64,000 nt of DNA from Giardia intestinalis (lineage: Eukaryota): NCBI GenBank assembly GCA_000002435.2, contig CM018793.1; one strand, given 5' to 3'. Shown piece by piece: positions 16,864-60,218 of this stretch. The notes under the pieces were generated by a model. That model saw nothing but the letters and a program-made list of their open reading frames with translations. It was not told the origin of the DNA and did not search any database. Made by a program: the position numbers and the translations under genes. The first letter of the stretch is position 1. Each line of letters starts with the position of its first letter.

Positions 16864-17080
16864 CTTCGGGCTCTACGTGGAGACGCGGGGCGCGCGGGTC
16901 GAGGCCTACGGGGCGGGCGCGGCCGGGACGCGGCTGCTCGGGGCGGCAGAGGTCCGGCTCGGGGGCCTGCTCGACGGGCGGGAGGTGCAGGCGGAGGCCC
17001 CGCTGGTCTGGGCAGGCGCAGAGATCGGGCGCGTGGCGGCGCGGATCGCGGCGGAGCAGGCGCTCCGAGTCCAGAAGTAA
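16864..17080 (+). other. Orphan duplicated fragment: 3' terminal 217 bp (about 70 codons plus stop) of the coiled-coil gene at 23809..25800
   Basis: It encodes GLYVETRGARVEAYGAGAAG...RIAAEQALRVQK*, identical to the C-terminus of the minus-strand gene in the right arm. It is very GC-rich with GC3 near 100%. Confidence 0.8.
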
Positions 17081-17135
17081 ACAGCACAACCTGCAAACAC
17101 AGAAGCGCTTGTACTGTATGTGTTGGCGCTCCCGC

Positions 17136-17206
17136 GCATCAATGGTTTAGGGGTAGAATGCTTGCTTGCCAAGCAAGAGAGCCGGGTCCGAGTCCCGGTT
17201 GATGCA
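17136..17206 (+). tRNA. tRNA-Gly (anticodon GCC), 71 nt
   Basis: Cloverleaf by eye: acceptor GCATCAA/TTGATGC, anticodon stem CTTGC/GCAAG with loop TTGCCAA, T stem CCGGG/CCCGG, discriminator A, and TTTT immediately downstream. It resembles canonical eukaryotic tRNA-Gly-GCC. The T loop reads TCCGAGT, i.e. C at position 55. Confidence 0.75.
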
Positions 17207-17535
17207 CTTTTCGCCCGGCCCGAGAAAACGGCCATCATATCATTACAGGGAGCGGGCTCAGGTGCATCGGCCCACACTGCGCCGAGACCTCATGAGGACC
17301 TCCCGCCTACTGTGCGTACAGTTACCTAAACGCATCTGTAATGGCTAAAGCACGCGGCGAGTAAGCGACCAGTTGAGAGAGCAAAGGTAGCTACCTCAGC
17401 AGGCCAGAGCAAGCAAGTAGGCAGTAGATGTGTTCACTACCGAGCTCCCTCCTGGGGCAGCCCTCGGAGTGGGAGTCTCAGAGAGGAGGCCGCCGGGCAC
17501 CCCCACCCGCTGCACGCAATCCGGTCCACACCACA

Positions 17536-32442: not shown

Positions 32443-32516
32443 TGATCCGACGGAGACTCGAACTCCGGACCTCTCGCACGTCAAGCGAACGTGCTAACCA
32501 GCTACACTATCGGACC
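32443..32516 (-). tRNA. tRNA-Val (anticodon GAC), 74 nt
   Basis: Reverse complement reads GGTCCGA-TA-GTGT-AGCTGGTTA-GCAC-G-TTCGC-TTGACGT-GCGAG-AGGTC-CGGAG-TTCGAGT-CTCCG-TCGGATC-A. All stems pair (G-U at acceptor pair 2), with U33, R37 and T loop TTCGAGT. It begins 8 nt after the stop of the upstream gene. Confidence 0.8.
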
Positions 32517-32890: not shown

Positions 32891-35800
32891 CTAAAGCTGC
32901 ACCATGGATGACTGTCTGGAGCCACTCAGCAGAGGCGCGGTAGAGTACATAGACGCAGTAAGACTAGAATTGTGAGTGAGTTGCGGCTTGGGGAGTCCAG
33001 GAGGTTTCCGCGGGGCGCGCTCCCTCAGTGGGCCGCCTCTCCTGGGCCGTATCACGAACCACCAGACGAGGAAGCCGGCCACCGCAACGAGGACGAGGAG
33101 GACGACGACCACGATCGCAGCCGTCGTGCCACCCGAGGATTTGTTAGATGGAGCAGGGACTCCGCAGACGAAGTCGCTTGTGAGAGAGAAGCCTTCATCG
33201 CATATGCAAGTGGGCTTTACGCCGTTCTCAGACACGCACCTGCCGTTGCCCCCGCAGATCGTCACGGTGCCGTCGGTGCCGCGCTGGACGCACTGGCTGC
33301 TGATACAGAGCTGGTCAAGAACACTTTCATACCCATACTTGCACTCGCATGTACTATCTGTGGAAAGTGGACAGTTGCCATTCCCCCCGCAGAGTGTCCC
33401 GCCGGAAACGCAGGCCGATGGGTAGCAAAGGGTCCCGTGGAGGGTCCAGCCCTGGCTGCAGCTGCAGGTAGCAGAGGATCCCTCGCCGGAGCACGTGCCG
33501 CCGCCGTTGCAGACTTTCCCGTCCTTGAGACACCTTGTGGGGATGCAGTCCCTTCCAACCAGGGTGTAATAGTTAGCACACAGACACATGTAATTGCCAT
33601 TGTTATTCTCGCAGGCGCCGAAGCCGCTGCAGAGCTTCTGGTCCGACGAAATACAATTGCTGTGCACGCAGCCATTCTGGCCAGGAAGATTTTGGAAACC
33701 AGAATTACAATCGCACTTCTTAGTATTTTCATTACACGTTCCACCACCGTCGCATACCTCTGCAGAGATGCTTGCATGCGCCCCGAAGCACTCCTTGACA
33801 AAGCACTGGCCGGTCTTCTTGTCTGTGCGATACTGATCACTGCACTGGCACATTCCCTGGCCAGCCACAAGGCTCGCGATGCATACTCCGCGCCCCTTAC
33901 ACACTGTTTTAGAGCCGTTCTCATCCGAGATGCACTGGCTATAAACACAGATGTTTGTCCCGACTAGGGTTGTCCCGGGGTTGCAAACACACGCCCCAGT
34001 GTCCTCGCCGTTATCATTACACGTACCCATGCCATAGCACGTTTTTTCTGTCTGATCGTATGGATCCGACCAAACGCATCTGGATTTTCGGCACTTCTTG
34101 CTAGCACTGTCAACGACGAAGCTCGAGTTGACGCAGACGCAGTCAAAGCTACTGCCACCAAACTGACAGCTTCCTATGTCAGTACTCCCATCGACACCAC
34201 ATCCATCTGTCGGACAGTTGTCAAGATAGCAGGCTCCGTCACTGTGTCTCTTATAATTTGTGGCACAGTTTTCACACTTTGCCCCAGTATACGCTGGAGG
34301 ACACTTGCAGGTTTTCGACTCAAGGGAACAAGTTCCTACGTTACCGCATATTTTATTAGTATCCGTTGAGGAATCAACACACGCATTTGGTATGCACAAG
34401 TACTCTCCAAAGATCCCATACTCAGAATCACACTTGCACGAGTAATGGCTCTTATCATTTGTTGCGCATTTCCCATGACCAGAGCACTCAACATTCTTAT
34501 CCGATCCTCCGGGTAAAGTTGCACTGCGACAAACCTCCTTCATGCACTTTCCATCCTCCATCTTGATGACATCATACCGTTCTCTTTTGCACTCACAATA
34601 CGACTTAGTCGGGTCAGTAGAATTAATGACACACGATCCAAAGTGACGACCGCCACACATCGTATCTACTTCAGCTCCTCCATCAAGCCTTGGAACTTTA
34701 AATATGCATTGCTTTGGTAGACAAAATCCATCAACCTCTGCATAATTATCAGGTTGCTGTGGTTGCTTGCACTTGCAAGTATAATCGAGGTGATTACCCT
34801 CTGATCCCACTTTTGTGCATTCTCCGACAGTCTCGCCACCGCAGATAGTTCTGGTAACTTTTCCTGTACTATCTGTAGTGTTAATTAAGCACATAGGACT
34901 CACACAGGTCTTTTCAAATGGCTCTGTTCCTCGATCGCATTCGCATCCATTGGGTCCGCATCTGCCCAAGCCTCCACAGATGACTGGTGTATCTGTCTCG
35001 GCTCCGCTAGAAATGCACCTATCCGAAATACATGTACTTCTCAACTCGCCGTTCACATCTCTAAGTGTGACCAATTTAGCATTATTATTGCACCTGCACT
35101 TCTTGTCCTTGAGTAGAGAATTTTCTTCAGCACATGTCCCCATTCCGCTACATACAATGGGCGGATCATCCGACAACCTTCTGTAGATGCACTTACTTGG
35201 AATGCATTGGGAATTGAGTTGGCCTCTTTCGTAGCCCTCGGAGCAGACGCAGCCGTAACGATTACCGCTCTTCACACATCCAGCCAGGACATCTCCTCCG
35301 CAATAGACATCGTTATATGATACGCAACTAGGATGGACGCAGATATTATTAATCAATTTAAGGGAAGATCTGCACTTGCATGAATAACTTCCGTTATCAG
35401 AATTCTTGTTGCACGTACCAAGGTATCCGTCATATACCTGACATTCAACGTACTTAACTTCGCTGTCATGAATCACCTTTCCAACGCACCCTGGATGAGT
35501 GCAGTAACCTCCAAAGGCCTCCAGGCCACTTTCGCACTCGCAGCCGTACCGGCCAGTTAGCTGGTTGTATGCGCAGACCCCCTTTCCGGAGCAGACAAGC
35601 ACGTTGATATCCGGATTCCTTATGTTATCTGATATGCCAACTGGCAGGCAGTCGTAGCTGTAGCACATGTCACCGATCTTGAGGAAGCCATTGCTGCAGA
35701 CGCAGGTTCCAGTACTGTCTATATATCCCGCACCAGGACCACCGCAGAGTCCCCTTGCTCGGTGGGTCTGTGGATTTGCGTTCTTACTCTTTGAAATGCA

Positions 35801-37924
35801 CGTCTTGTTGTACGTAACATAGTCCCCAGTGCAATTACACTGCCACGTTGTGTCCCGGCCAACAGTGCATTGATACATAAGGTTAGACTGAGGAATGCAG
35901 TAGTCTGGTGCATAGGGGCCAGCAAGTGTTTTGTCAAGCTTGCATGCATCAGTAACACACGCCTTCAAGTCGGGGTTCCACGTAGCATCTGGACCGCAGT
36001 CGCATTTATATCCTCCGCTTTTATCCTTCTTTTTGACACAGTCTCCCACACCGCCGCAGTAATTGTACCACATGTGACTATCGGGTTGGCCATCGTGACA
36101 GTCATTATGCATGCAGGTTTTATTGTGTTCTCCAAAGTGTACAAGGTGAAAGCCATTTGGACACTGAGTGCACGTTTCAGGTAGATCGGGTTTGTCGGAA
36201 GGTTTAGCGCACGTAGGCAAGTCATTAGCTGGCAGGTTTTCTGTTACATTCTCAAGGAATCCACAAAAGAACCTTCTCGTCTTGTCTATCTTACTGATAA
36301 ATACACATCCAGGCTTAGCGGAGAAGGTGCCGTTGTAGGCGGAGACATTCCCATCACTGGAGTCTTTAGGAACGCATGTGATGAACGGATTGCTAGGATC
36401 GCCGAAGGTAGTGTACTGACCATCTGGTCCGCAGACGCGTGAGTCAGCAGCACGTGCGGTGGGCGGTTGCGGCGTCGATATGATGCATTTTTTGGCGGTG
36501 CATACGCCATCTATCTCCTCTGCAGTGGTTGTATCACAAGTTTCGCACTTATTGCCTGTGTAGATAGGCGAACACTGGCAAGTCATCGTATCAGGAGCCT
36601 CAGCACTAACGACAATGCGTCCATGATCGCTGCAAACCGTGGCAGGGATATCCACCAGACTGCTCAAGATGCAGCGCCCTGGAGCGATGTAAGTATAGTC
36701 CTGATCACAAGTGCATTGTATATTTCGTAGATCGTCCGTCTTGCACGTGCCGTGTCCCGAGCAGACCTTCCCCAGCTCCTCGTCCATGCATGCAGGGGAC
36801 GTGCACTCTCCGCTGACGGCAATGAGCATGTCCGGGCAGCGGCAGTGGTACTCGCCATCGGACTTGACGCATGTTCCTCCGTTCTTGCATGATTCCTGGT
36901 TGTTTGAGGTGAGGCACCCCACTGGAACGCACTTGTCGCCTACCTGAGCGGATTTCCCAGGAGTGCAAGTATCACAGAGGTCGCCCGTGGCAAGCCCTCG
37001 GCAATCGCACTTATAGCCAGCCCCGTTGCGCACACAGGCGCCCACTCCACCACAGATCTCAGTAGCAGCGCTGTCTGTGCACGCGGAGTATGTGCAAAAC
37101 TTATCGACCTGGACTGCGTCTGGGTCGCAGGCGCACTTGGGGGCACCGTCGCCTTCTTCTATACATTTTCCAAAGCCCCCACAGACGACCGGGGACCCGT
37201 CGATTGTGGCCACGCACTCTGTCCTGACGCACTTGTGCCCAACGCGTGTGTAGCCAGCATTGCACTTGCAGCGGTAGTGATATGATTCGCGATCGAGGCC
37301 CACGTCGAGGGTGCACGTTCCCTGGCCTGAGCACACGACCCCATCCGAGTCCTGGCAGGCCCGCGCATTGCACGTAGGGAGGGCGTCAGACGAAGAGCTT
37401 TCCACAGCGATCGCGTTGGCGTCGTCGCACGACTGGCAGAGGCCCCCGCGATAGATCGGGTAGCAGTCGCACGCGTAGTCGTCAGCACTCAGCCCGGCCA
37501 GCCCGGGGTCCTTCAGGAGGCAGCGGCCGCGGCCGTTGCAGGGGGCCTTCGTTGCCTCCTGGTCTGAGTAATCGCCGGTGTTGAAGCAGCTCTTCGGCAG
37601 GCACTCGCCCTCGTAGGACACGAAGCCATCGGGGCAGGGGTCGCACGAGTACGCCCCCGCGTAATAGGTGCACTTGCTCGACCCTGTGCACTCCGTCCCG
37701 TTCACGAGGCAAGCGTAGTTGACGGCCCTGTCTGCGGGTGTCTGCCCACTGGTAGTTACCCTGCGGAACCCTGCACGGGGAGCATCGCACGCAGCCCCCG
37801 CCCAGCCCCGCCTGCACTGGCAGAAGTATGCTCCGTCCCCGTAGGCGCAGTCTCCGTTAACACATGCAGGTCCTGTCCCGCATGCACTGGCGAAGAATAC
37901 AGTAGCATACAGGAGAATCAGCAT
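32891..37924 (-). CDS. High cysteine membrane protein (HCMP; VSP-like CxxC-repeat type I membrane protein), 1677 aa
   Basis: N-terminal signal peptide (MLILLYATVFFASA), hundreds of CxxC / GxC motifs across ~1600 aa, a single C-terminal TM (AAIVVVVLLVLVAVAGFLVWWFVI) and a ~60-aa cytoplasmic tail that does not end in CRGKA. ATG confirmed at 37922-37924. Confidence 0.85.
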   Translation of the reverse strand: MLILLYATVFFASACGTGPACVNGDCAYGDGAYFCQCRRGWAGAACDAPRAGFRRVTTSGQTPADRAVNYACLVNGTECTGSSKCTYYAGAYSCDPCPDGFVSYEGECLPKSCFNTGDYSDQEATKAPCNGRGRCLLKDPGLAGLSADDYACDCYPIYRGGLCQSCDDANAIAVESSSSDALPTCNARACQDSDGVVCSGQGTCTLDVGLDRESYHYRCKCNAGYTRVGHKCVRTECVATIDGSPVVCGGFGKCIEEGDGAPKCACDPDAVQVDKFCTYSACTDSAATEICGGVGACVRNGAGYKCDCRGLATGDLCDTCTPGKSAQVGDKCVPVGCLTSNNQESCKNGGTCVKSDGEYHCRCPDMLIAVSGECTSPACMDEELGKVCSGHGTCKTDDLRNIQCTCDQDYTYIAPGRCILSSLVDIPATVCSDHGRIVVSAEAPDTMTCQCSPIYTGNKCETCDTTTAEEIDGVCTAKKCIISTPQPPTARAADSRVCGPDGQYTTFGDPSNPFITCVPKDSSDGNVSAYNGTFSAKPGCVFISKIDKTRRFFCGFLENVTENLPANDLPTCAKPSDKPDLPETCTQCPNGFHLVHFGEHNKTCMHNDCHDGQPDSHMWYNYCGGVGDCVKKKDKSGGYKCDCGPDATWNPDLKACVTDACKLDKTLAGPYAPDYCIPQSNLMYQCTVGRDTTWQCNCTGDYVTYNKTCISKSKNANPQTHRARGLCGGPGAGYIDSTGTCVCSNGFLKIGDMCYSYDCLPVGISDNIRNPDINVLVCSGKGVCAYNQLTGRYGCECESGLEAFGGYCTHPGCVGKVIHDSEVKYVECQVYDGYLGTCNKNSDNGSYSCKCRSSLKLINNICVHPSCVSYNDVYCGGDVLAGCVKSGNRYGCVCSEGYERGQLNSQCIPSKCIYRRLSDDPPIVCSGMGTCAEENSLLKDKKCRCNNNAKLVTLRDVNGELRSTCISDRCISSGAETDTPVICGGLGRCGPNGCECDRGTEPFEKTCVSPMCLINTTDSTGKVTRTICGGETVGECTKVGSEGNHLDYTCKCKQPQQPDNYAEVDGFCLPKQCIFKVPRLDGGAEVDTMCGGRHFGSCVINSTDPTKSYCECKRERYDVIKMEDGKCMKEVCRSATLPGGSDKNVECSGHGKCATNDKSHYSCKCDSEYGIFGEYLCIPNACVDSSTDTNKICGNVGTCSLESKTCKCPPAYTGAKCENCATNYKRHSDGACYLDNCPTDGCGVDGSTDIGSCQFGGSSFDCVCVNSSFVVDSASKKCRKSRCVWSDPYDQTEKTCYGMGTCNDNGEDTGACVCNPGTTLVGTNICVYSQCISDENGSKTVCKGRGVCIASLVAGQGMCQCSDQYRTDKKTGQCFVKECFGAHASISAEVCDGGGTCNENTKKCDCNSGFQNLPGQNGCVHSNCISSDQKLCSGFGACENNNGNYMCLCANYYTLVGRDCIPTRCLKDGKVCNGGGTCSGEGSSATCSCSQGWTLHGTLCYPSACVSGGTLCGGNGNCPLSTDSTCECKYGYESVLDQLCISSQCVQRGTDGTVTICGGNGRCVSENGVKPTCICDEGFSLTSDFVCGVPAPSNKSSGGTTAAIVVVVLLVLVAVAGFLVWWFVIRPRRGGPLRERAPRKPPGLPKPQLTHNSSLTASMYSTAPLLSGSRQSSMVQL

Positions 37925-39819: not shown

Positions 39820-41778
39820 ATGTCCAAGGACACGGTCTTTCCTATTGCCGTTTTGATAGACGACCTGAAGAATGAAGACGCAAATGCCAGGCTCAGTGCA
39901 GTCAAACGCATAGATCAGATAGCTGTTGCCTTGGGCCCGAAGCGTACGAGGGATGAGTTCATTCCGTTTCTCTGTGAATGCGTTGACGACGATGACGAGA
40001 TTCTTATCGAGCTGGCGCAGAAGCTGGGGAAGTTTGTGGACCCAGTGGGAGGGCCCAACTACGCTCCAACCCTTCTGAACCCTCTTCGTCTTCTGGCGTG
40101 TGCTGACTCAAAACTCGTCCGGGATGAGGCCATAGCCTCTGCAGTGCGGGTTGGAAGCAAGCTCACCGACAAAGACTTCGCAACATCATTCGTCCCCATG
40201 GTCGAGGCCCTTATCAAGGGCGAATGGTATAATCACAGAACTTCCGGAGTGGGGCTTGCTCACCTGGTGTTCAAGCGCTGCACAACGTCAACTATTCGCA
40301 ATGACCTCCTTGAGGCCATCCAGCGCTTGGCCCAGGACACGTTACCTATGGTCAGGCGAACCGTGGCCGAGTGCCTCTCTCAGATCGTCGAAGATGCAAC
40401 GGGGCAGGAGATAGCATCCTCCATTAAGACAGTTCATCAGCTTCTGGGAGATGACTCGCAAGATTCAGTGCGAGCGGTGAATATTGCTACTACTCCCTAT
40501 GTGATGGTGGCCCTCAATAAGCTGCTAATTAGCGGAAAAGATGTCTCGGAGAATGTCATTCAATCAATAAGGGACGAGCTCTATCGTAAGTTCCTTTCTG
40601 TCTTCTGCGTAGATGAGTCGTGGCGTGTTCGTCACGCGTGTGCAGATATCTTTATCAACGTCCTAGAAGGATATCTAGGCTATACGACCGTCTTCGAAAA
40701 GCCTGCTGCCGCGAGAGCATCGACGACTGATGTGCCAGACTGCAACGAAGCCATAGATCTCATTTCTGACAATAAGCCCAACACTCTCGACACTCTGAAA
40801 GAAGCCAGTTTGAAGATCCTTAACAGTAAGCCGTCTGCGCCTGCAGGAAGCAACTACGACGCCGCAAACGTCGTGAGGGCCTTTGCAAAGCTTCTCTCCG
40901 ACGAAGAGCCAGAGGTCCGCTGCATCGCAATTCAGAGGGTTGTGCGCGTTGCCAGCCGCATCAGCCCGGCAAATATCCTTGCCTATCTCTTACCGGTTCT
41001 TACGGACCGCGCGTCCAACGATAACAGCATCTTTGTACGCTCTGCTTTGGCGAGAAACGTCGTCGGTCTCGCGCAATTTATTGGAAAGGATGACTCCATC
41101 AAGACAATTAAACCGATCATAGCAAAGCTTCTCGAGGATCGAGATCCCGACGTGCGTGTAACCACACTTCTTAGCCTGCCGCACATCATCGAGGTCACGG
41201 GCGTCCAGCCGTTCACTACCAACATCCTTCCCACGGTTGTCTTGTTAGCAGATGACAGCGACTGGCGCATTAGAAAGTCCGTGGTACAGGCCATCCCGGG
41301 GATAGCAAAAGACCTCGGTGTGGCCTTCTTCGATGAGAAACTCTCTGGTCTCTGCATGAATTGGCTTTCAGACACCGTTAACTACATCAGAAGGGCTGCG
41401 GTGCGCAATCTCGTTCAACTTTCGACTATCTTTGGGCAGGAATGGACGCTAAGAGTGCTCGTCCCCAAGATAGCAACTCTGAAGCAAAATTCAAACTATC
41501 TGCAGCGAATCAATGCACTCTTCTTCATCCAAGAGCTTGCGGCCGCTAGCAAGTCGAACATAGTGGCACAGCACCTAGTGCCCATTGCACTTCGCATGGC
41601 TACAGACCCCATCCCTAACGTCAGATTTATGGCAGCCGAAACACTGGGCAAGTGTGCCCCTTATGTGCCTGCGCAGTGTCGTGAGAGCCAGATGAAACCT
41701 TGCCTGATGAACCTGACGAGTGACGTCGACGTCGACGTCAAGGCCTTTGCAAAGGATGCTCTGAAGAGTTTACAGTAG
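39820..41778 (+). CDS. Protein phosphatase 2A regulatory subunit A (PR65 HEAT-repeat scaffold)
   Basis: Collinear with PR65: YPIAVLIDDLKNED...RLSAVKRIDQIAVALGPKRTRDEFIPFL... through ...KLSGLCMNWLSDTVNYIRRAAVRNLVQL...DVDVKAFAKDAL (PR65 has ...[28 protein letters not shown]...DQDVDVKYFAQEAL). Confidence 0.9.
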   Translation: MSKDTVFPIAVLIDDLKNEDANARLSAVKRIDQIAVALGPKRTRDEFIPFLCECVDDDDEILIELAQKLGKFVDPVGGPNYAPTLLNPLRLLACADSKLVRDEAIASAVRVGSKLTDKDFATSFVPMVEALIKGEWYNHRTSGVGLAHLVFKRCTTSTIRNDLLEAIQRLAQDTLPMVRRTVAECLSQIVEDATGQEIASSIKTVHQLLGDDSQDSVRAVNIATTPYVMVALNKLLISGKDVSENVIQSIRDELYRKFLSVFCVDESWRVRHACADIFINVLEGYLGYTTVFEKPAAARASTTDVPDCNEAIDLISDNKPNTLDTLKEASLKILNSKPSAPAGSNYDAANVVRAFAKLLSDEEPEVRCIAIQRVVRVASRISPANILAYLLPVLTDRASNDNSIFVRSALARNVVGLAQFIGKDDSIKTIKPIIAKLLEDRDPDVRVTTLLSLPHIIEVTGVQPFTTNILPTVVLLADDSDWRIRKSVVQAIPGIAKDLGVAFFDEKLSGLCMNWLSDTVNYIRRAAVRNLVQLSTIFGQEWTLRVLVPKIATLKQNSNYLQRINALFFIQELAAASKSNIVAQHLVPIALRMATDPIPNVRFMAAETLGKCAPYVPAQCRESQMKPCLMNLTSDVDVDVKAFAKDALKSLQ

Positions 41779-42524: not shown

Positions 42525-43265
42525 GGGCGTCTGGTCGACCTATGCTGTCGCTTGCCTTTTTTTGCGCTAAAGTGTTCTGGATGGACATCAATAGGTTTCA
42601 ATACAGTGGCTGCGATTGAGCTAGCCGAAAGGTCACTAAAAGGGAGACGTGAGAAAGTGCTGAAGGTAATCGGTAGCCTGCCATAAAGCCGCCAAAGAAA
42701 AAAAATCCAGAGATGGCGTATGTTTCATTGCTCGTTCCACCCGACGTCTAACACGCAGAAAGACAGAGAAGCACGCTCCCGTTGCACGCATCTCCCCCAA
42801 GAGCGTCTTTCGCGCGTCCTTTATCTTTATCGGCATAGTGCTTTCATTGCACTTTGCAACGGCACTTGTAACGAAAAAGTAAATCGAGGCTGCTAAAACA
42901 CAGGGCTGCACAGCATCCTTGCACCTGCGTAGCCGATAGGTACGGGTGACCGTTTATCCCGGGCTCGTGTGGGCCCGGGTAGGCACGGTCAAAGAGTTTC
43001 CTTCATTCAATTTTTAGATCCATCTGGCGCACGTTACGAGGCCTGGCTCCCGGTCCGGCCCTACCTTGCGTGCGCATATCTCCGGGATCTGCGCCGCGTC
43101 TGCTCGCGGCGATTTCGGTTATGCCGGCCCGAACACTCCTTCATTCAACAGGCCCGGAAGAGCGACTTCACCCGAACAGCGGCTGACCAGATACAAAGCA
43201 GGATGGGGTATTTACACCATAATCTACACAGACGATCCATTAGTGAGCAAACTCCTGGGGCGAGC

Positions 43266-44717: not shown

Positions 44718-47700
44718 ATGATTTCGTGTCCCTCTGACATTATTCTCATGGAGCCGAGGGGACTGGCCGCCTACTTTCAAAACATGGGGGCTCTATGTGG
44801 ACTTGCAGACAGTATTATCTACTCTGAGGTGTCTGGGGCCATGTTTGCCGCGATGACTCCTGAGGCCTTTCTAACGGCACTTAACAGGCCTCTGGACCCC
44901 TGTGTGCTTAAGGAGTTGCGGCTGATCCAGAGCCTTATTCAGCAGAAGATAAAGGATAGCGTGCCTTCGTTTTTGGACAGCGTTTGCAAAGGTGTTATCC
45001 TGGGATGCTCTCCCACCCTCAATACTGAATGCAATGGTGATTCATCTGGTGAAAACATAGCTGACCTCCGGAGAGACTGTCCCTCATTTGGGGACGCGCC
45101 CAGATCTAGTCGATTCTATGAGATAGCAGTGCTTGGTTGCTGGAACAGTTCTATTTTGTGTGTTCCAGTCGACACCGTTGGATGCTACTTAGATGAATGT
45201 AATTACCCTAATCACCCGTCTCCTTCTATGCTCCCTCGCGGGTCTCTAGTCGACATTGTACTGAAGAGTGGATGTTCTGCCAGGTCTTCGATTGATACCG
45301 ATAATATAAAATTAGTTATTCCTTGCTCTAACACGTGGGAGGCGTCTCTAATGGGGCTTCTTTCCATGGTACATGACTATCTGAATACTGCACGGAAAGC
45401 CACCCACCCACCCTTTCATATTGGGATGTATTCGGCTCTTCCGTTCGCCTCGTCAGTCAGTCAATCTAGTAACCATGATGGTAATGTACTCACTACAATA
45501 ACTCTGGCGGATGTTCTAGAGTCCCCGGAGGCTATGTCCCAGGAACACACGTCCTACATGGAGCAAACTGCGTTTAGGTCTATCGACGAAGATATAGCGT
45601 GCAACAGCAGCTCACACGATGGCCTGTGTAACCCTAACGCTGATCAATGTACGGATTCTCTCAAACCCGTATCTGCCCCAAGCCCGATTGAATATGAGCC
45701 TTTGTCTCCACCTTCAGAGCAGCTGTTTCCAAGTTACCTGTTCTCTAATACTTCAGGTGCCTATAAGGAATTATTTGGCAGGCTTTCAGCCAGCGCGTCT
45801 GGTGAGATCCCATGCTACACTGACATTTGTGCTACTGGGATACCTCCATCCGGTTTCTATGCCCCTCTTCCCCAGTCTTCTGGGGTGTCTATTGGTATGC
45901 ATAAAAGCCTTTCTGACATGCCTCTACCATTCATGAACGCTCCCAATATTCTTCTACCTAATACAATCGCTAACGCCCACGTGAACAATAGGCTGCTTAG
46001 TAGTACGATGCAGTGCTTTAATGGATTTATTTACAAGTATAACCCTATGCTGGTCTTGCCCCTGTCCACTCGTTTCCGCGGAAGGATAGAGTTCATCCAG
46101 GACGGATACGGTTGTATAGTGTGTCCCCCTTTCAGCAAGCAAAGTCAAACAGCCCAGAGCATACCCACCTTCATGAATCCCGAGTTTGTCATGAGCGCAG
46201 AGAAGGCCGGGTGCGCCAGTATGCGAAAAGTGTTCCAATCGCTCGTGAACATTCCCCAGGATGTCCATAGCATGATGAACTATTCTCCACCAAATATCTC
46301 CTCGCTAAGCTCCTTCAATATCGCTGACGGGCTGTCGCTGTGCTGCTTCTTCGCAGCCCCCTGGGTCCAGACATCCCCTAACACCCCTGACTGTTCACTG
46401 ATAAGAGGGGACATTGTTGAGTTCAATCTTATACACGGGTATGGATATCTAGACGAGTATGCCGTCTATGGGAGTGCGAATCAGCCATTCTATCCGCTTG
46501 TCTCCAATGCAGCCCTAGAAGCTATGGCTAAACACGGTGGTCGTTTGGCCAAAGGGAAAGGAGAAAAGCAGCGCACAGAGAAGAAGAAAGGAGACGAGGC
46601 CCAGATGAAGCACAGTCTCTCAGCTCCTGCCGTCTCCACGAACCCCCTTATGAAGTTTAATCGAGCTGATCTCACCGACTACTATTTCCTGCATCAGTCA
46701 ACGAGTAATACCGCTGAGTATATCACGCTTCTGGCAGACAAGATTACCGTGGTCAAAAACACCCGTGTAACCAAATCACAGTGGCACAGCCTTCTCGTTG
46801 ATGGCCACATATATCAAGGAATTGTCTACACTTTCAATGAAGCAGAAAATTACGGATTCATTAAGTCCTACGGTAATCGTATGCAGGCAGGAACGCTGAG
46901 TCAAGGCATAGAGGTTTATTTTCGTCCCTCTCCTTCTAGTACCTGGAAACCGGAAAGAGGGTGCTTTGTTTCGTTCAAGGCGAAGTGGGTGGATTCTAAG
47001 GCCCAAGCAAGAGAGGTCAAGCCCATCTATAGCCGCACAAGCAGCTTCTTCTTTGGGCAGTGCCTGGGGGTCTTTCCTCCTTTTGCTATAATCAGAGCAG
47101 TGGCGCATATTGAGCACAAGATGAGCACGGAGAAATACGGCTTTTCCGGCCGCACGGTAGACTTTCTGCAGTGCCGTGGTCTCTTGACGGCAGGGGCCGA
47201 TCCAGAGCCATATGTCTATGATGGTCAAGACCCTTCGTTCTCTTGCAGAAAGATAGACCCGTATTGGGCCAGCGATGTTTACTTCGTCCGTACAAAGACT
47301 CTTGCTCAGGCGCTCAAGATATCCCTCGGGGTGGGCTCCTATGTCGGGTTCAACATCGACCCTGACATTAGCACGCATCTGCGAGCAGTCAATCTGTCAG
47401 TAATTGACCCTAGTATTTTCACTGATATCCTCAGCTATATTCAAAGGTACTCATCTAATGCCATTATACCTTCCCTCCGACATTCTGTATTAACGCAGCA
47501 GTCTATAGAGAAACTACCGTGGTCCCTTAACTTCCACATGCCAACCAGGGCAGAGCCCACTCCGTTACGCGCCTTTACATTCCACCTTGAGCTTGGCTCG
47601 CTGCAGGCAGTGTTCCAGGAAGGGACACTCCAGGATACGGGCTTTCTTCACAATTGTCAAATCAGGCTATCGTCTAAGTACGACACTCAGCTTTTAACGA

Positions 47701-48221
47701 TTCCATTGAATAGCGTCTTGAGACCGCTAGAGGTTGCTATTCCTTCCTCGCAATATGTATTTGTATGCTCAGAGATAGACTCTACCAACGTGCTGCCTAA
47801 TCAGCTCTATGAGCTGGGATATTCTAATACACTGTTACCGAGCACGTCCCCTCAGACCCATACAATAAGTCTAGCCCTACTTGTGAACTCCTCCACGACT
47901 TGCTATGCAATGCAAGTGTCCTACATAACTGATGAGTACGTCATCCTTAATAGCTTGACGATCAAATACGATACCTGTACAGCAGCGGAGTACGTGGAGC
48001 CCAGCCTCTTCTATATAGGAGTACCCAGATCAACATACCCACTGGGGTACATGTTCTTCGGGATGACGGTATATCTAACGGTATTGTCCACTAAACCGGA
48101 GCAGCTAGCCAACGGTCTAGTGCTTGGAAAGCTGTTTGCAAACAGAGATTATATATTAGTAGTATTTATTCTGTCTTCCGTTGACATAGAAATTACAGCA
48201 CCTACTCAAGCGCAGAGTTGA
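44718..48221 (+). CDS. Large hypothetical protein, 1167 aa
   Basis: ATG at 44718 after 'aataaatttaggtt'. 3.5-kb ORF with no recognisable domain. Confidence 0.5.
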   Translation: MISCPSDIILMEPRGLAAYFQNMGALCGLADSIIYSEVSGAMFAAMTPEAFLTALNRPLDPCVLKELRLIQSLIQQKIKDSVPSFLDSVCKGVILGCSPTLNTECNGDSSGENIADLRRDCPSFGDAPRSSRFYEIAVLGCWNSSILCVPVDTVGCYLDECNYPNHPSPSMLPRGSLVDIVLKSGCSARSSIDTDNIKLVIPCSNTWEASLMGLLSMVHDYLNTARKATHPPFHIGMYSALPFASSVSQSSNHDGNVLTTITLADVLESPEAMSQEHTSYMEQTAFRSIDEDIACNSSSHDGLCNPNADQCTDSLKPVSAPSPIEYEPLSPPSEQLFPSYLFSNTSGAYKELFGRLSASASGEIPCYTDICATGIPPSGFYAPLPQSSGVSIGMHKSLSDMPLPFMNAPNILLPNTIANAHVNNRLLSSTMQCFNGFIYKYNPMLVLPLSTRFRGRIEFIQDGYGCIVCPPFSKQSQTAQSIPTFMNPEFVMSAEKAGCASMRKVFQSLVNIPQDVHSMMNYSPPNISSLSSFNIADGLSLCCFFAAPWVQTSPNTPDCSLIRGDIVEFNLIHGYGYLDEYAVYGSANQPFYPLVSNAALEAMAKHGGRLAKGKGEKQRTEKKKGDEAQMKHSLSAPAVSTNPLMKFNRADLTDYYFLHQSTSNTAEYITLLADKITVVKNTRVTKSQWHSLLVDGHIYQGIVYTFNEAENYGFIKSYGNRMQAGTLSQGIEVYFRPSPSSTWKPERGCFVSFKAKWVDSKAQAREVKPIYSRTSSFFFGQCLGVFPPFAIIRAVAHIEHKMSTEKYGFSGRTVDFLQCRGLLTAGADPEPYVYDGQDPSFSCRKIDPYWASDVYFVRTKTLAQALKISLGVGSYVGFNIDPDISTHLRAVNLSVIDPSIFTDILSYIQRYSSNAIIPSLRHSVLTQQSIEKLPWSLNFHMPTRAEPTPLRAFTFHLELGSLQAVFQEGTLQDTGFLHNCQIRLSSKYDTQLLTIPLNSVLRPLEVAIPSSQYVFVCSEIDSTNVLPNQLYELGYSNTLLPSTSPQTHTISLALLVNSSTTCYAMQVSYITDEYVILNSLTIKYDTCTAAEYVEPSLFYIGVPRSTYPLGYMFFGMTVYLTVLSTKPEQLANGLVLGKLFANRDYILVVFILSSVDIEITAPTQAQS

Positions 48222-48347: not shown

Positions 48348-48926
48348 CTAACAGTAGCACCGTGAAGAAGGAGGAGCTATCTCGAGGTCCTCAAGGGAAA
48401 GGACAGACTTCGGCATGCTGCTGGCCATCTTGCGAGCAATGATTGTGCTCATTTCAGCTATTACTTGATTGGTGCCAATTCCAGTGAGGCCACAAATGAA
48501 GAATATCGGAGAGTCATAGAGCGCAGCGAACGCCCGGGCCTCCTCATGAGTTACAGCAATCTTGTGATTCAGCTCTGCTAAGTCACACTTTGTCGCCACG
48601 AAAATAATAGAGAGATCCGGTTCCAGCCCAAGAACCTTCTGCACATACTGCGAGGCCGCCACAAAGCTTGGCCTGGAGACGAAATCGAAGACTACCAGAC
48701 ATATACATGCGCTCTTGTGCGCTAGAGACGAGACACCTCCCATATATTCGCCCTTCATTGTGTCCCACAATCGGATGCTCACGGTTTCGCTTCCGACACG
48801 CAGGCGCATACTGTGGATGTCTACGGTCTCGGTTGTATCTCTGGGTGGTCTGTTGTATGCAAGAGAATGAACAAGGGTGGTCTTCCCGCAGCCCGCCGAC
48901 CCCACCACACTGACTTTGTACCGCAT
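48348..48926 (-). CDS. Rab-like small GTPase (divergent), ~192 aa
   Basis: From the first ATG: MRYKVSVVGSAGCGKTTLV (G1), WDTxxxE (G3), TKCDL (G4), C-terminal CYC prenylation-type motif. The track start at 48959 is TTG. Confidence 0.7.
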   Translation of the reverse strand: MRYKVSVVGSAGCGKTTLVHSLAYNRPPRDTTETVDIHSMRLRVGSETVSIRLWDTMKGEYMGGVSSLAHKSACICLVVFDFVSRPSFVAASQYVQKVLGLEPDLSIIFVATKCDLAELNHKIAVTHEEARAFAALYDSPIFFICGLTGIGTNQVIAEMSTIIARKMASSMPKSVLSLEDLEIAPPSSRCYC

Positions 48927-48982
48927 GGCTGTTAGGATTTTTTGTGTCTCAAGCGCCAAAGGGATTTACTAGCCGGGTTCGC

Positions 48983-50102: not shown

Positions 50103-50426
50103 ATGTCCGAGTATCGTGACTACGTAGTCCGCTACAAGAAGCCAACTACAAACAATGCAAACAAGAAGCCGGCAGGAACTTACGACAAAGATCCCGGAGA
50201 CAATGCATTCGGCCCCAAAGCTATCGAGTTTGAAGTGCGTCGCAACCTGGAGCGTGCACGTGCCGCGAAGGGCATGAACAGAAAGCAGCTAGCTGATGCA
50301 GCGTATATCAAGGAATCGCAGCTCGCAGCTTGGGAATCCGGCTCTGCTCCCATTCCTGATGCTGTCATTCCTAAGTTGGAGAAGGTCCTCGGTACAAAGC
50401 TAGTCCCAGAGAAGGATAAGAAGTAA
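50103..50426 (+). CDS. MBF1: Multiprotein bridging factor 1 (MBF1), HTH_XRE-type
   Basis: 107 aa. The C-terminal HTH region (KGMNRKQLADAAYIKESQLAAWESGSAPIPDAVIPKLEKVLGTKL) matches MBF1. Confidence 0.8.
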   Translation: MSEYRDYVVRYKKPTTNNANKKPAGTYDKDPGDNAFGPKAIEFEVRRNLERARAAKGMNRKQLADAAYIKESQLAAWESGSAPIPDAVIPKLEKVLGTKLVPEKDKK

Positions 50427-50642: not shown

Positions 50643-53600
50643 ATGAGAGGCTTCACGTTCAGCGTCGGCGGGGGCTGCCGGAATGCTCCTGTCGACTTTG
50701 GACCGTGTAGAGCAGGGACTTCCACGGTGATAGAGGTTCTCTTTAGCTCCACGCTCTCTGTAAGCGTTAACGTTAGCATCTCAAATTTGCCACGGCACAT
50801 TGATGCTGTTCCCAAGCAATTTATTCTCAATCCCTCGAGCAAGATGAATGTGAAGTTCACATGGGTCTCAAAGGATACTAAATTTCAAATCCTCAACGAA
50901 ACTCTGAATGTTGAAAGCCAGAAGTCAGTGCAGCACCTTGTGCTCTTGGGCTTAGCAACTGAGAAGGAACTGAACATCTTTTTTTCGGCATCCAATGAGA
51001 AGCTCTACTTTCGTATTTTGGGTCGGCCCGAGACTTTCTTTGTCCAATCTCCTATTTTTGAGGACACAGCGGGCAGCGAGGCCTTTATATCACGAACTGC
51101 TTTGGCTCAAAAAGGGACAGACCCATTTGTGCTACTCAGCGATAGGGCCATATATGATAAAGTACTACACCACGGCTCCAACATTCTCAACAACTTCACT
51201 AACTCACTCCTACACACCTCATACTTGGCTGGGTATGAAGTTTTTCAGGCAACCTTCTTGAGGGACACCCTCCCCAACATTCTTATGACTGCACACAGAA
51301 GATACAGCCAAGCGATACCGGCAATACGGCGTAAGATTACCTTTAGAGGAGACATTTCTGCCCCTCTCGATCAGCAATGTAGATCCATGCTATCGCTAGC
51401 TTTGGAGTCCATCGACGGGGCGATTTTCCGGTTAGTTTGCGATTGTTTGTATAGGCCCCAGCCCAATCTTTTCGCCCTCTTTGATTTGCCACAAGTGCGT
51501 ATTGCAGACATCCTGCTCAAGTTGCAGCAATCAGAGATAGTGAAGCAGCTCTTCTGTAGGGGGTCAGCTGGGCTACAGAACAGAGCCCTCAGCATAGAAG
51601 ATCAACGGGTGAATAAGACTCGGAACTGTAACCTCTTTATCGTAGTTCTCTGCTTTATCGATCTATCTCTCATAGTGTATAAAGCATCAGGAATACTCCG
51701 GCCCCTGCAGCACCACGTGGAAACTGTTGCAGCGACAGGAAAGCGTAGTAGTATAACGCAAGCAAGAACGTTGACAGAATTTCTCAACTCGTACTATACT
51801 ATAATTGGCTCAACTGGGGGACTTAGCACAATTTTAAATGACCTAGGATTTAGTTGGTTCAATCAGTCGATAGAACAGCCTCACCCTATTTCCTCCATAA
51901 GCTCACCACTTAAGAATGAAAACATTGCTAACTTCAGGACTCTTCTCCCCCATCTGCTTCTCTATATGTCGAGGAAACGCGAGTACTGCCCAGGCGCATT
52001 AAAGATACCTGCAGAGACGTATGAAGAAATAATAGAAAATATGCGGATACTTATATCCTTCTGCTGGCCACACAAGCTTGTCCTCGAGGCATCGAAGGGA
52101 CTCAACAAAAATTTGGCATCTCTCCCATCTTTGACGAAGACAATGCTGAATAAAATAATATTAACCATCATCAAGGAGAACCAAATGGCTGGACTTTTAT
52201 GTTCAGAAAAGGTCTTCTTGGCCTGCCTCAATAGTACAGTGGAAACCTCTATGATTAGCATCTCCTGTCAGCAGATATTTAAAAGATTGAAGTACGTTTT
52301 CAACCCGTCTAATAGCCCTATTGTTCGAACGGTTGATCGTATGTACGACGAGTTCAGGCGTAAGCAGGAAGCATTGACTCGTTCCTCTGTTATGCTAAGC
52401 AATGCCAGCGTGCTGGATATCATCATATCCGGGTCACAGGCACACCCCTCCTTCACCGGAAAGAAGCATCGTACGCTTCTGGCCACCCTGGAGCGTCACC
52501 TCAGTTCCCACAGATATTCAGAATTTCTATTGCTTGCTTTGCAAATGGTCGCGTTAGTCCATGGATATGATCTAAACGGTGTAATATTTGACCCGCGGGA
52601 TTGTGTCAACAACGGCCTTCTTTTGATAATGATAGCTCGTGTTATTCTTCCCACAGGAAGACGGATATTTCCAGGCAAGACGCTCTGGAAGTTTAACTTT
52701 GCAGGCACGTTGCAATCATCCATGGTATTATCCACGTACAGCGAACCAGAGTGTTACAACAATGATGATGTTAGTGAGCCTGAAGATGGGTTTAGTTGTT
52801 CTCTCCGTAAGAGTAGCACGACGGATCCTTCTGGCTGGGATGATACCAGGAGTTCTAAATTTGAGCGCTTCAGCTCCACGCGGATTGCCACTTTGTCTGA
52901 GAAAGAACCAACCCTTTCGCAAATCATCATGCAACAGCAAGAGCGCGATGGATATGTGAAGCCAGAGCATAATGTTCTCAGGCTCGCCGACTTCTATAGC
53001 TGCCACTTGGCGTTTATCTCTGCACTCGAGCGCTACGAAGAGCTACTACAAAAGTGGGACTATAGTCTCTCCCTTGAGGTTTTTGCTAACAGACACTCTA
53101 TCCTTCGCGTTTTGCCCAGCTTCGTTTATTCTGATAACATCCGTGAACGGACGCGATATAGTTTTTCACTATTTAGATTGATTGATGCCTACACACGTAG
53201 TATGGGAAGCACACTTCCTAATACTAGCATGTTGTCATACTACGTATCAATTCTGTTTGTTACTGCACTTGTTTCCAATGATTATTGTCTGACAGGAGAC
53301 ATTAAATTAGAGCTTCTGCACATTTCACCTGAAGAACGCGACTATCAGAACCTTCTAAACAAATATGCAAAGAAGACAGAACAATACAGAATACGGACCC
53401 GTGTAGACCGCCGAATAGCAGCCATTCAAGCGTCATGCAGAGGCTTTCTTGCCAGACAGTACTACCGACGTGTTCGGTACAGCGCACTTGTCATCCAACA
53501 CATGTGGCGTACAAAGCTTTATCACTTCGAAAAAGGCTACCTTCTTACGGCACAGGCTCGCCGAAATCTCTACTTACGAGCTCTTCTCACACATGAGTCA

Positions 53601-56600
53601 CGCCCCCAGGATGATATATTTAATACTGAGCCTGGAAAAAGAGTCCTGAAGGCTGTTTTGTCCATTCAACGCTATGTCAAACAGAGAGCTCTTAGAAGAG
53701 TGATGCCTACAATTCAGATATATCTTGCAACAAAGCGACGTACCCTTGCAAGTCACACAACTATGCAGGCAGTTCGCGTCTTGCAGTACCACATGCTAGC
53801 ATACAGTCTGCTATCCTTTCTTAGGCTTTTGGCGGATGCTGAGCGCATCTTTAAACTTTCATGGAGTGACGTAAAGCTGTTTTTGCCCACTGCTTTGCGT
53901 GGCTCACTCTCGTTGGCAGAGTCTTGTGATCTATTGGAGCTACAAATCACAGGTACTGCCACCTCTCCGAATACAAACAGATTTACTAACCTAGGATTTT
54001 CCACGCAATATTTGCACATAGGACCATACCTATCTATTTCACGCAGCAAAGCACAGCTCGAGGAGTACATAGCACGTATTTCTAGTGTGGGGACAGTGTT
54101 TCGCGCTAGTTACGCTGGGTATATAGTTAGAAGGACTCTGGCACTGATGCTCAGCAGGGCATCTTCTTATCCGCATCAGAGCATAAATCACAAACAGAGC
54201 ATCTTTTATGGCGCGCGCTGGATGCAGTATCATCCTGCAGACGTTCTACATGTATTACTCAGTCGCCAGTATTCTGTGGAGAACAGAGAGTATGTTCTTA
54301 GCGCATACATAGCTGAATACCATGGTCTTCTATCGAGTGTGTTGCTCATTCAAGCATTTTTCAGGGGCACAAAGGAGCGACTTCGTGCCAGGGTTCTTCA
54401 GGCGATTGTTAGGCAGATGATAGGCACTTCCAATCTACAAGACATTACTGACTCTTTTTATATATTTGTCCTTCGTGAGGCAACAAGGAGTGTCGGTTTG
54501 TTAGAAGCTGAAGCACTAAAAAAGCTAGGTAAGCGTTTAACTGTGGATCAGTACATTCAGATGATAACTTTATTCATGGATACGCTCTTACTGCGAGTGT
54601 CTAGGATACAAGCAGCGTTTAGAGGATGCAAGTTACGGACTACGCTTTATCGAATTCGGTGTGCTTGTTGCAACGACTTTATACTCATGCGCTTTGCCAT
54701 TTCCAACGACTTCAACTACTATGCGCTAGTTGATGCAGAGATGATAATTTTACGGTGCATGAGAAGACATCGCCAACGAGTCCTGGTTGCCAGGGCCATT
54801 CAAGCGGCTCCTTCTGCAGTAAAGCTGTTCATAGACGAAGCATCTCTTCGAGGCATCCAGACAATCGCTGATTTCAACGCTTATCAAGATAGGATACTTC
54901 GCGCAGCAACCCTTTTGCAATCTATGGTGCGCATGCTCATAACCATAAGGAACATTAATTGTGTCATGACGGTAAGCCCAATACTGCTCAGATATCCAAT
55001 AATTTGTGATGGTCTGTTGCTACCAACCGTTATCTTTCGCGAGGTTATGCTCAAGCATGTTATTGACAATACTGTGCGTCTACAGAGCTGCGCACGAGGA
55101 TATAGAGTTCGACTACGCCAACAACTGCTTCATTTACTTCTCGAGAAGATGCTTGGTATCACATGCTCAACCTCTTTTCATCATGATACTGCGTCGCGGA
55201 TCAAGCAGATTGTAATCCGTCGACTAGATCTAGTTACGTGCAGCCCTAAGGATATTCTTGAGCATACCGATGGTGTTTCCAGGTCTGTGGTTATTCTCCA
55301 GGCTCACATCCGGGGATGGGTTGTGCGTAGAAACTATAGGGATGGTGTACTAGTTTCTGTGAGAATAATTCAAAGGGCAATAAAGACTTATCTACACAAC
55401 TTATTTACTAAGCTGGTGAAAAAGCATGATACACTTTTGAATGACCTTCCACTTCTTATTTCTGTTGGTATAGTTAGCCAAGATATTGACGTAGGACTTC
55501 GTCGAGATATACCCTATCTTTCCGCTGGTAGCCTTGCTATGCTACAAGATACGTGTGACAGACTCTTATGCGCATTAGCTAGTTTTCGTGGAGTGGTTGT
55601 CAGGCTAAGGCTACGAAGGCTCAGGGATATATCTACGACACAGTGTATATTTAGAATGCTATGGCACCAAGCTTCTGTGCACGATCAGCTTCCACCGTCC
55701 GTTACCTCTACACTCAAGATTTACGGTTTACTAAATAGCAAATCCATCATTCTTCAGACATACATGCGTCGCCGCTTAGTGCACTTGAGACTAGGCTTAA
55801 TACAGCACCTAACCAATAAGCTGGTGAATTTAGAGATGCAGTCACAGTCTTCTGTGGCGCGTTTCGTGAAGCAAACCGTTCTCTATGTTGCGTTGCAGGC
55901 GGGTCTTACTGATGCAGCCATTTTCGATGCACTCGATGCGACTACTGAAAGCATAACTCTCATCCAGCAAACTATCAGACGGAGAGTGCTTATACGGAAT
56001 ATAGGTCTATTGAAAATTATGCACCTAACATTCAGCAATCTGTCGCCTCTACCTTTTCACATGATAATTCAGTTTTTTAGAAACGTAGCAGCTGACCGTC
56101 TGCTGTGGACGATTCGCAGTAGAAAACGCTCCACTGCAATATTGTATATTATAGACAAGAGTTTGGAGCGTGTACAAGCCCGTGCTCTCAGTTATCTCGC
56201 TCTTCAGATGCAGCACACCTACAATCGTCTGGAATTGGATCCTATTCTTTACGATTTGTTGTGTGACCCCAACGTGCAAAGCAGTAGTGCGTTACAGAGG
56301 GCTTATGAAGAGTTAGATAGATCAACACGCATGATACAAGCCTGGCTTCGGGGGTGCAGGGCTCGCCGGCTAGTGTCCACTTGCCGGGCGACATTGCTTG
56401 CTCACTGCAGCCATGTTGATTCACGGTTACAGAGGATCCTACTCCACCATTTGCACAGGTGTGAAAATCAGCTAGAAAGCGTAGAGTCTGTTGTATTGAC
56501 TTTGGTGAGTGCAGCGACTTGCATTCAGCGATACTATCGTGGCTGGTGTGTACGTTGGACTCTTAAACGCATTGCTCCATCACTAGCCTATTTAATGCTT

Positions 56601-60218: not shown

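What the first reader, a model, noticed from the sequence alone, without database searches (positions are those of the whole stretch)
50643..60218. 3191-aa ASPM-like protein with at least 25 IQ motifs in a diplomonad
The IQ-type consensus [IL]Q..[FY]RG....R occurs at dense, fairly regular spacing along about 2000 residues. It follows an N-terminal beta-rich segment that could be an ASH/MSP-like domain, as in abnormal spindle (ASPM) proteins, which organise spindle poles and bind calmodulin or centrin. No calponin-homology domain is obvious. For an organism with two nuclei, median body and eight flagella, a giant calmodulin/centrin-binding ruler protein is a plausible cytoskeletal organiser. 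It is also the largest gene in the window.
Basis: partly seen in the sequence, partly recalled or inferred. Interest (0 to 1): 0.5.

Follow-up and report, generated by a model that had tools for sequence, protein, structure and literature searches.

The report
Giant Giardia IQ-motif scaffold, ASPM-like layout
This is a real 3191-residue Giardia gene, listed in databases only as an "IQ motif protein", whose domain order resembles the spindle-pole protein ASPM, although true membership of that family and any spindle role remain unproven.

Summary
The ORF at 50643-60218 (+) is real. It is identical to Giardia intestinalis WB GL50803_113219, annotated "IQ calmodulin-binding motif-containing protein".

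Pfam IQ scores E=5e-33. I count 26 clear and about 5-6 degenerate IQ sites over aa 921-2960. 24 of the 26 sit in the same alignment column in G. muris. Their key residues are 82% identical, against 22% for the rest of the array.

Several points count against membership:
- No calponin-homology domain is detectable.
- IQ motifs are about 80 aa apart on average (23-228), not contiguous at roughly 25 aa.
- An exhaustive profile search of the N-terminal 925 aa found relatives only in Giardia and one unnamed Giardia-like organism.
- The AlphaFold database library was unavailable, so no direct structural comparison with ASPM was possible.

"ASPM-like" is partly supported as an architecture but not shown as orthology. 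It is most likely a light-chain-decorated microtubule-organelle scaffold. Interest is moderate.

The parts
50643..60218 (+). Whole gene: 3191 codons plus stop, about 363 kDa, pI 9.8. Identical to GL50803_113219.
50643..51047 (+). N-terminal beta-rich ASH/MSP-type Ig-like domain (aa 1-135). The Pfam ASH match covers aa 8-98, which is nt 50664-50936.
   Evidence: Pfam ASH E=0.019 in WB, best 3.6e-5 among relatives, 0.0027 in P0035. Other top weak hits are CFAP74, Cep192 and HYDIN Ig-like domains. The only PDB hits are Hydin.
51063..52712 (+). Conserved, mostly helical region of unknown fold (aa 141-690). It is the best-conserved part of the protein, 32-58% identical to G. muris.
   Evidence: No Pfam or PDB sequence hit. 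AF2 model unusable, pLDDT 32.
52713..52967 (+). Poorly conserved Ser/Asp/Glu-rich linker (aa 691-775), net charge -7, variable in length between species.
52968..53402 (+). Conserved helical domain directly before the first IQ (aa 776-920). This is the position where ASPM has CH domains, but no CH signal was found here.
53403..59522 (+). Basic IQ-motif array (aa 921-2960). It has 26 clear and about 5-6 degenerate IQ sites, net charge +147, pI 10.2 and 44 prolines. Two myosin-like tandem pairs lie at aa 928/951 and 1552/1576.
57975..58817 (+). Sub-region of the array with a regular 50-53-aa period of IQ and degenerate-IQ sites (aa 2445-2725).
59523..60215 (+). C-terminal all-helical ARM/HEAT-like domain (aa 2961-3191). 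Its core, aa 2980-3075, is 46-62% identical to G. muris.

Best explanation
The gene encodes a 363-kDa modular cytoskeletal scaffold with the same domain order as ASPM/Asp. The order is one N-terminal ASH (Ig-like) domain, a conserved helical region, a 2040-residue very basic array of about 26-32 IQ motifs, and an ARM/HEAT-like C-terminal domain.

Shown: the motifs, their excess over chance, their selective conservation, and the domain order.

Inferred:
- Each IQ helix binds a calmodulin or calmodulin-like EF-hand light chain. Giardia has no myosin, so these are not lever arms. One molecule would therefore carry two to three dozen light chains.
- The ASH domain and the conserved helical region target it to microtubule structures such as spindle poles, basal bodies or axonemes.
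- The C-terminal solenoid recruits partners.
- The IQ sites are separated by 25-200-aa spacers containing Pro and Gly. The array is therefore more likely a segmented chain of light-chain-bound helices than one rigid rod.

I regard it as either a very divergent ASPM-lineage protein or an analogue. Orthology itself I put at about 0.35-0.4.
For: IQ motifs:
- Pfam IQ E=5e-33 with 15 stretches.
- 26 sites at >=5 bits against 0 in shuffles.
- I/Q/R key residues are 82% identical to G. muris and 64% to P0035, against 22% and 17% for the rest of the array. 24/26 and 16/26 sites are retained in the same column.
- The array has net charge +147 and pI 10.2.
- The weak best PDB matches are myosin IQ lever arms.

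Other domains and context:
- ASH.
- C-terminal ARM/HEAT-like fold.
- The ASPM definition (ASH, CH, IQ, HEAT/ARM) comes from PMC10047693.
- Giardia lacks myosins: PMC2375034.
- The same architecture is kept in G. muris (3023 aa) and in a more distant relative, P0035 (3453 aa).
Against: - No CH domain was detected by Pfam or hhalign.
- IQ spacing averages 81 aa, with 44 prolines in the array, unlike ASPM's contiguous IQ repeats.
- The region between ASH and the IQ array is ordered and conserved. From my own knowledge, ASPM has a long, poorly structured basic stretch there.
- An exhaustive profile search with aa 1-925 found no ASPM or other non-Giardia relative.
- The C-terminal fold match is generic.
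- The ASH hits are below Pfam's curated cutoff of 27 bits.
- There are no localisation or binding data.
Confidence: 0.5

Rival explanations
1. It is a Giardia-lineage invention that only converges on the ASPM layout. On this reading it is a light-chain-binding scaffold of Giardia-specific or flagellar microtubule organelles (axonemes and their cytoplasmic portions, median body, ventral disc, funis), not a spindle-pole focusing factor.
For: - The family was found only in Giardia spp. and one Giardia-like Logan assembly. It was not found among 1.84 billion representatives or in JGI metagenomes.
- ASH domains are typical of ciliary proteins. The weak hits are to CFAP74, HYDIN and Cep192.
- No CH domain is detectable.
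- The sparse, spacer-interrupted IQ array is unlike ASPM.
Against: - I know of no other family with the order single N-terminal ASH, long IQ array, C-terminal ARM/HEAT, which is exactly the ASPM order.
- Giardia proteins are often too divergent for sequence searches, so failure to detect ASPM homology is weak evidence.
Confidence: 0.35
2. The IQ sites bind centrin or another EF-hand protein rather than calmodulin. The protein would then be a contractile or elastic, Sfi1-like fibre component at the basal bodies.
For: - Giardia has two basal-body centrins (abstract of PMC12307541, listed).
- Long arrays of EF-hand-binding helices are how Sfi1 works (PMC2063913).
Against: - The Sfi1 consensus AX7LLX3[F/L]X2W and looser forms have 0 matches.
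- The motifs are canonical IQxxxRGxxxR.
- Giardia has its own Sfi1-repeat protein, used in the repeat logo of PMC2063913.
Confidence: 0.1
3. The 'IQ motifs' are merely Arg/Gln-rich helices without light-chain binding.
For: - Only 12 of about 26 sites have the complete IQxxxRGxxxR form.
- Pfam's model counts 15 stretches, not 26.
Against: - Pfam E=5e-33.
- The excess over composition-matched shuffles is enormous.
- Motif positions are conserved (82% identity) while the surrounding array has drifted to 22%.
Confidence: 0.03

Closest known systems
ASPM / Drosophila Asp / C. elegans ASPM-1 (abnormal spindle family)
   Same: - N-terminal ASH/MSP-type domain.
- Very long array of calmodulin-type IQ motifs. 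The array spans about 2040 aa, similar to my recollection of about 1960 aa in human ASPM.
- C-terminal HEAT/ARM-like domain, in the same order.
- Giant size: 3191 aa, against 3122 aa in mouse and 3477 aa in human (PMC10047693).
   Different: - No detectable CH domains.
- 26-32 IQ sites at a mean spacing of about 80 aa with Pro-containing spacers, against 24-81 essentially contiguous IQ repeats.
- A conserved, ordered 550-aa helical region follows the ASH domain.
- No sequence-level homology found outside the generic ASH and IQ modules.
Myosin lever arms (e.g. myosin-Ic, scallop and Physarum myosin regulatory domains)
   Same: The tandem IQ pairs or triplet at aa 928/951/1008 and 1552/1576 have 23-24-aa spacing. 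They are the best, though weak, PDB sequence matches (E 0.04-0.6).
   Different: There is no motor domain. Giardia has no myosin at all (PMC2375034). Most IQ sites are not in tandem.
Sfi1 (centrin-binding repeat filament)
   Same: A long helical protein built from many EF-hand-protein binding sites at a microtubule-organising centre. This is an analogy of mechanism.
   Different: The Sfi1 consensus is absent, with 0 matches, and there is no 33-aa period. Sfi1 has no ASH or ARM ends.
Hydin / CFAP47 / CFAP74 (ASH-domain central-apparatus proteins)
   Same: ASH-type Ig domain and giant size. Hydin is the only PDB sequence hit of the N-terminal profile.
   Different: Those proteins have many ASH domains, or ASH plus CH, and no IQ array (PMC7999657). 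This protein has a single ASH domain.

Membership tests
ASPM/Asp | N-terminal ASH (ASPM-SPD2-Hydin)/MSP-type domain | tested here: met
   Pfam PF15780 covers aa 8-98 and profile positions 5-96 of 98. E=0.019 in WB, best 3.6e-5 among 5 relatives (4/5 hit), 0.0027 in P0035. Other top weak hits are CFAP74, Cep192 and HYDIN Ig-like domains. The only PDB hits are Hydin. Caveat: all scores are below Pfam's curated cutoff of 27 bits.
ASPM/Asp | Calponin-homology domain(s) upstream of the IQ array, tested by sequence | tested here: not met
   No CH, CAMSAP_CH or related Pfam hit at E<=10 in WB, G. muris or P0035 segments. hhalign against 10 CH domains gave a best hit at aa ~611-653, E 0.012-0.03, probability 2-3.5%, which is not significant.
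ASPM/Asp | CH fold, tested by structure | not testable with these tools
   The AF2 model of aa 1-925 has pLDDT 32 and is unusable.
ASPM/Asp | Multiple calmodulin-type IQ motifs | tested here: met
   Pfam IQ E=5e-33. 26 clear sites plus about 5-6 degenerate, conserved across species.
ASPM/Asp | IQ motifs arranged as an essentially contiguous tandem array (about 23-27 aa per repeat; my own knowledge of ASPM) | tested here: not met
   Spacing is 23-228 aa, mean 81, median 70. Only two tandem pairs exist. The array contains 44 Pro.
ASPM/Asp | C-terminal HEAT/Armadillo-like domain | tested here: met
ASPM/Asp | Detectable sequence homology to ASPM-family proteins beyond generic modules | tested here: not met
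   The profile of aa 1-925 searched against 1.84e9 representatives returned only the Giardia lineage. The full-length word-indexed search returned only Giardia. The C-terminus was not searched exhaustively.
ASPM/Asp | Spindle-pole or minus-end localisation; calmodulin binding | not testable with these tools
   No paper in the searchable library names the gene. The supplements of the ventral-disc proteome paper do not list it.
Sfi1 | Repeats with consensus AX7LLX3[F/L]X2W, about 33 aa apart | tested here: not met
   0 matches to strict or loose forms. Consensus taken from PMC2063913.
Myosin | Motor (myosin head) domain N-terminal to the IQs | tested here: not met
   Pfam finds only IQ in the full-length protein. 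Giardia has no myosins.
Hydin/CFAP ASH-repeat proteins | Many ASH/Ig domains along the protein | tested here: not met
   The single ASH-like hit is at aa 8-98. The rest of the protein is predicted helical.

The most novel reading that the evidence does not exclude
The protein represents a new kind of IQ-array architecture. In it, light-chain-binding IQ helices are embedded in 50-80-aa helical modules, forming a segmented, Ca2+-tunable chain of up to about 300 nm. In a myosin-free cell it would be the main multi-calmodulin platform, and it would set the spacing or mechanics of Giardia's unusual microtubule organelles. This arrangement would either have evolved independently of ASPM or be a radically remodelled descendant of an ancestral eukaryotic ASPM.
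Probability: 0.2. Interest if true: 0.6.

Novelty: new variant of a known kind. Interest (0 to 1): 0.4.

Why it matters
Giardia divides with two spindles anchored at basal bodies. It lacks myosin and many canonical centrosome and actin regulators. How its spindle poles and eight axonemes are organised is poorly understood.

A conserved 363-kDa protein with ASH, about 30 IQ sites and an ARM-like end is a concrete, testable candidate for an ASPM-type organiser. It would also be a major calmodulin sink.

If orthology holds, the ASPM module would extend to metamonads and therefore probably to the last eukaryotic common ancestor. It would also show that the IQ array can evolve from a contiguous rod into a sparse, spacer-interrupted chain.

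If orthology fails, this is a case of convergent architecture. Either way the practical value is a target for tagging or knockdown, not a conceptual surprise.

Tried and rejected
1. AF2 of aa 1-925 with a 5-sequence alignment gave pLDDT 32, so no fold search was run on it.
3. The search for homologous proteins with the N-terminal alignment returned nothing, not even the Giardia proteins themselves, so that search was wasted.
5. Profile searches against PDB sequences with the N-terminal and C-terminal alignments gave 0 hits at E<=10.
6. Pfam scans of sub-segments of WB, G. muris and P0035 for CH or anything else found only noise.
7. hhalign against 10 Pfam-validated CH domains, including versions with the aa 691-775 linker spliced out, was not significant. 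My by-eye CH-like motifs at aa 180-276, 625-672 and 838-880 are therefore unsupported.
Shuffled controls reached 0.049, so there is no signal.
9. The Sfi1-type centrin-repeat reading was rejected, with 0 consensus matches.
10. IQ spacing as multiples of about 25 aa (a degenerate contiguous array) was rejected. Many spacings of 55-63 and 83-86 aa do not fit, and the spacers do not score as IQ.
11. There are no DNA tandem repeats in the gene.
12. Two metagenome scans found no further relatives.
13. Literature and supplement look-ups for the gene ID found nothing.
14. The supplements of the ASPM evolution paper contain no usable ASPM protein sequence.

Full report
**1. The observation**

The ORF runs from 50643 to 60218 on the + strand, starts with ATG and encodes 3191 aa plus a stop. 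It is the largest ORF in the window; the next largest is 1677 aa. An exact look-up shows it is Giardia intestinalis WB GL50803_113219 (XP_001704110.1, UniProt A8BZ05). Sources name it "IQ calmodulin-binding motif-containing protein" or "uncharacterized protein".

Orthologues of nearly the same length exist in the other assemblages: P15 at 86% identity, GS/B at 72%, and a further lineage at 68%. G. muris has one at 31% identity and 3023 aa. Conservation starts at residue 4, which supports the annotated start codon.

**2. The IQ motifs**

Pfam's independent IQ model scores the protein at E=5.1e-33 (110 bits) with 15 stretches. No other family appears for the full-length protein.

| Pattern | Sites observed | Mean in shuffles |
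|---|---|---|
| [IL]Q..[FY]RG | 6 | 0.01 |
| [ILVM]Q...RG | 15 | 0.15 |
| Canonical [FILV]Q...[RK]G...[RK] | 12 | 0.02 |
| [ILV]Q...[RK] | 27 | 4.9 |

An HMM built from the protein's own sites finds 26 sites at >=5 bits, against 0 in shuffles. It also finds about 5-6 degenerate sites that keep the RG...R half. This is circular for discovery but useful for counting. All sites lie within aa 920-2960.

The decisive argument for function is conservation:
- 24 of 26 sites are retained as [ILVMF]Q...[RK] in the same alignment column in G. muris, and 16 of 26 in the more distant P0035.
- The I, Q and R key residues are 82% identical to G. muris and 64% to P0035.
- The rest of the array has drifted to 22% and 17%.

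The array is strongly basic, with net charge +147 and pI 10.2. That fits binding of acidic EF-hand proteins. "At least 25 IQ motifs over about 2000 residues" is therefore right.

"Dense, fairly regular" is not right. Spacing ranges from 23 to 228 aa, with mean 81 and median 70 (median 61 if degenerate sites are counted). The array contains 44 prolines. Only aa 2453-2709 has a regular 50-53-aa period.

Only two places have myosin-like tandem spacing of 23-24 aa, at aa 928/951 and 1552/1576. These give the best, though weak, PDB sequence matches, to myosin-Ic and scallop/Physarum myosin IQ regions.

**3. The other domains**

*N-terminus.* Residues 8-98 match Pfam ASH (PF15780) over the whole profile:
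- E=0.019 in WB.
- Four of five family members hit it, with best E=3.6e-5.
- P0035 hits it at 0.0027 even as a full-length query.
- The other leading weak hits are CFAP74, Cep192 (SPD-2) and HYDIN Ig-like domains.
- The only PDB sequences hit by the N-terminal profile, among 177,635, are Chlamydomonas Hydin (E about 1.3-1.8), on several of its ASH repeats.

All scores are below Pfam's curated cutoff. The consistency still makes an ASH-type Ig domain probable.

*Residues 141-690 and 776-920.* Together with the C-terminal core, these are the best-conserved parts of the protein (32-58% identical to G. muris in 50-aa windows). They are separated by a variable Ser/acidic linker at aa 691-775. They have no Pfam or PDB sequence match. 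AlphaFold2 with the shallow alignment failed, with pLDDT 32.

**4. Comparison with ASPM**

The review PMC10047693 defines the family by four features: an N-terminal ASH/MSP domain, CH domains, many IQ motifs (24 in fly, 60 in mouse, 81 in human) and C-terminal HEAT/Armadillo repeats. The Giardia protein has three of these in the same order.

The CH domain is the missing one:
- Pfam finds no CH-type family in WB, G. muris or P0035 segments.
- hhalign of these against Giardia segment alignments gave at best E 0.012-0.03 and probability 2-3.5%, for aa ~611-653 against CH helices A-C. After testing about ten segments this is not significant.

A structural test was impossible. The model was poor, and the AlphaFold-database library needed to compare with Asp/ASPM-1 is not installed.

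Searches for relatives gave the following:
- An exhaustive hmmsearch of the aa 1-925 profile against 1.84 billion representatives returned only Giardia proteins and P0035.
- P0035 is 3453 aa, comes from Logan assembly SRR31929897 on a contig of 59% GC, and has the same ASH-IQ-C-terminal layout.
- Two metagenome scans found nothing more.
- As a lead only, an hhalign of the C-terminal alignment against a human ASPM C-terminus recalled from memory (unverified) scored no better than shuffles.

The resemblance to ASPM is therefore architectural. Orthology is possible, since Giardia proteins are notoriously divergent, but it is not demonstrated. Two features differ clearly: the sparse, interrupted IQ array and the ordered 550-aa region after the ASH domain.

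**5. Alternatives**

- Sfi1-like centrin binding is excluded at motif level, with 0 matches to AX7LLX3[F/L]X2W (consensus from PMC2063913).
- A myosin is excluded. There is no motor domain, and Giardia has no myosins (PMC2375034).
- Hydin/CFAP-type proteins have many ASH domains and no IQ array.
- "Just Arg/Gln-rich helices" is contradicted.

**6. Mechanism**

*Shown:* a conserved modular protein with one ASH-like domain, about 26-32 selectively conserved IQ sites in a very basic 2040-aa region, and a helical-repeat C-terminus.

*Inferred:*
- The IQ helices each bind calmodulin or a calmodulin-like light chain.
- The ASH domain and helical N-region bind or target microtubule structures.
- The solenoid recruits partners.
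- The Pro/Gly-containing spacers make the array a segmented chain rather than one rod. If fully helical and extended, it would span about 300 nm.
- Whether it acts at spindle poles (ASPM-like) or on axonemes, median body or disc is open.

No searchable paper mentions the gene, and the ventral-disc proteome supplements do not list it.

**7. Verdict**

- The ASPM-like interpretation is partly supported: the architecture matches, membership is unproven, and function is untested.
- The IQ annotation already exists in databases. The ASH domain, the ARM-like C-terminus and the ASPM-like layout appear undescribed.
- I rate it a new variant of a known kind, with moderate interest (0.4).

Noticed in passing
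window 16864-19658 and 21231-24025: A perfect 2795-nt inverted repeat, 100% complementary, with a 1572-nt spacer, in a GC-rich stretch (0.56-0.60). Each arm carries a tRNA (17136-17206 +, 23683-23753 -) and a 331-aa ORF with a weak Pfam VSP hit (E=1e-10). It looks like a recently duplicated or homogenised inverted VSP-like gene pair.
   Followed up: partly
window 50103-50426 (+); L001 20812-21159 (+): A 107-aa MBF1-like HTH_3 gene lies 216 nt upstream of the IQ gene. In the distant relative's contig, an MBF1 that is 51% identical lies just downstream of the orthologous IQ gene. Adjacency is conserved but the order is switched.
   Followed up: partly
window 42852-42997 and 43026-43139 (+): Two adjacent Giardia H/ACA snoRNAs, GlsR25 (186.6 bits) and GlsR26 (142 bits), plus a third tRNA at 32443-32516 (-).
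   Followed up: no
window 48348-48959 (-), 60312-63479 (-), 39820-41778 (+), 32891-37924 (-), 15863-16825 (+): Neighbouring genes: a Ras/Rab-like GTPase (203 aa); a 1055-aa ankyrin-repeat protein; a 652-aa HEAT-repeat protein of the PP2A-A type; a 1677-aa Cys-rich EGF-like protein in a GC-rich stretch; and a DUF4485 protein.
   Followed up: no
L001 (Logan SRR31929897 contig, 59% GC): The 3453-aa homologue P0035 comes from an unnamed organism more distant from G. intestinalis than G. muris is. It is about 33% identical in the ASH region and 51% in MBF1. Its contig also encodes DM10, LMBR1, Nop53, RPS23 and TPH-domain proteins. It is probably an unsequenced Giardia-like diplomonad.
   Followed up: partly
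window 44718-48221 (+): An 1167-aa ORF with no Pfam family at E<=0.001. It is a second large uncharacterised protein near the IQ gene.
   Followed up: no
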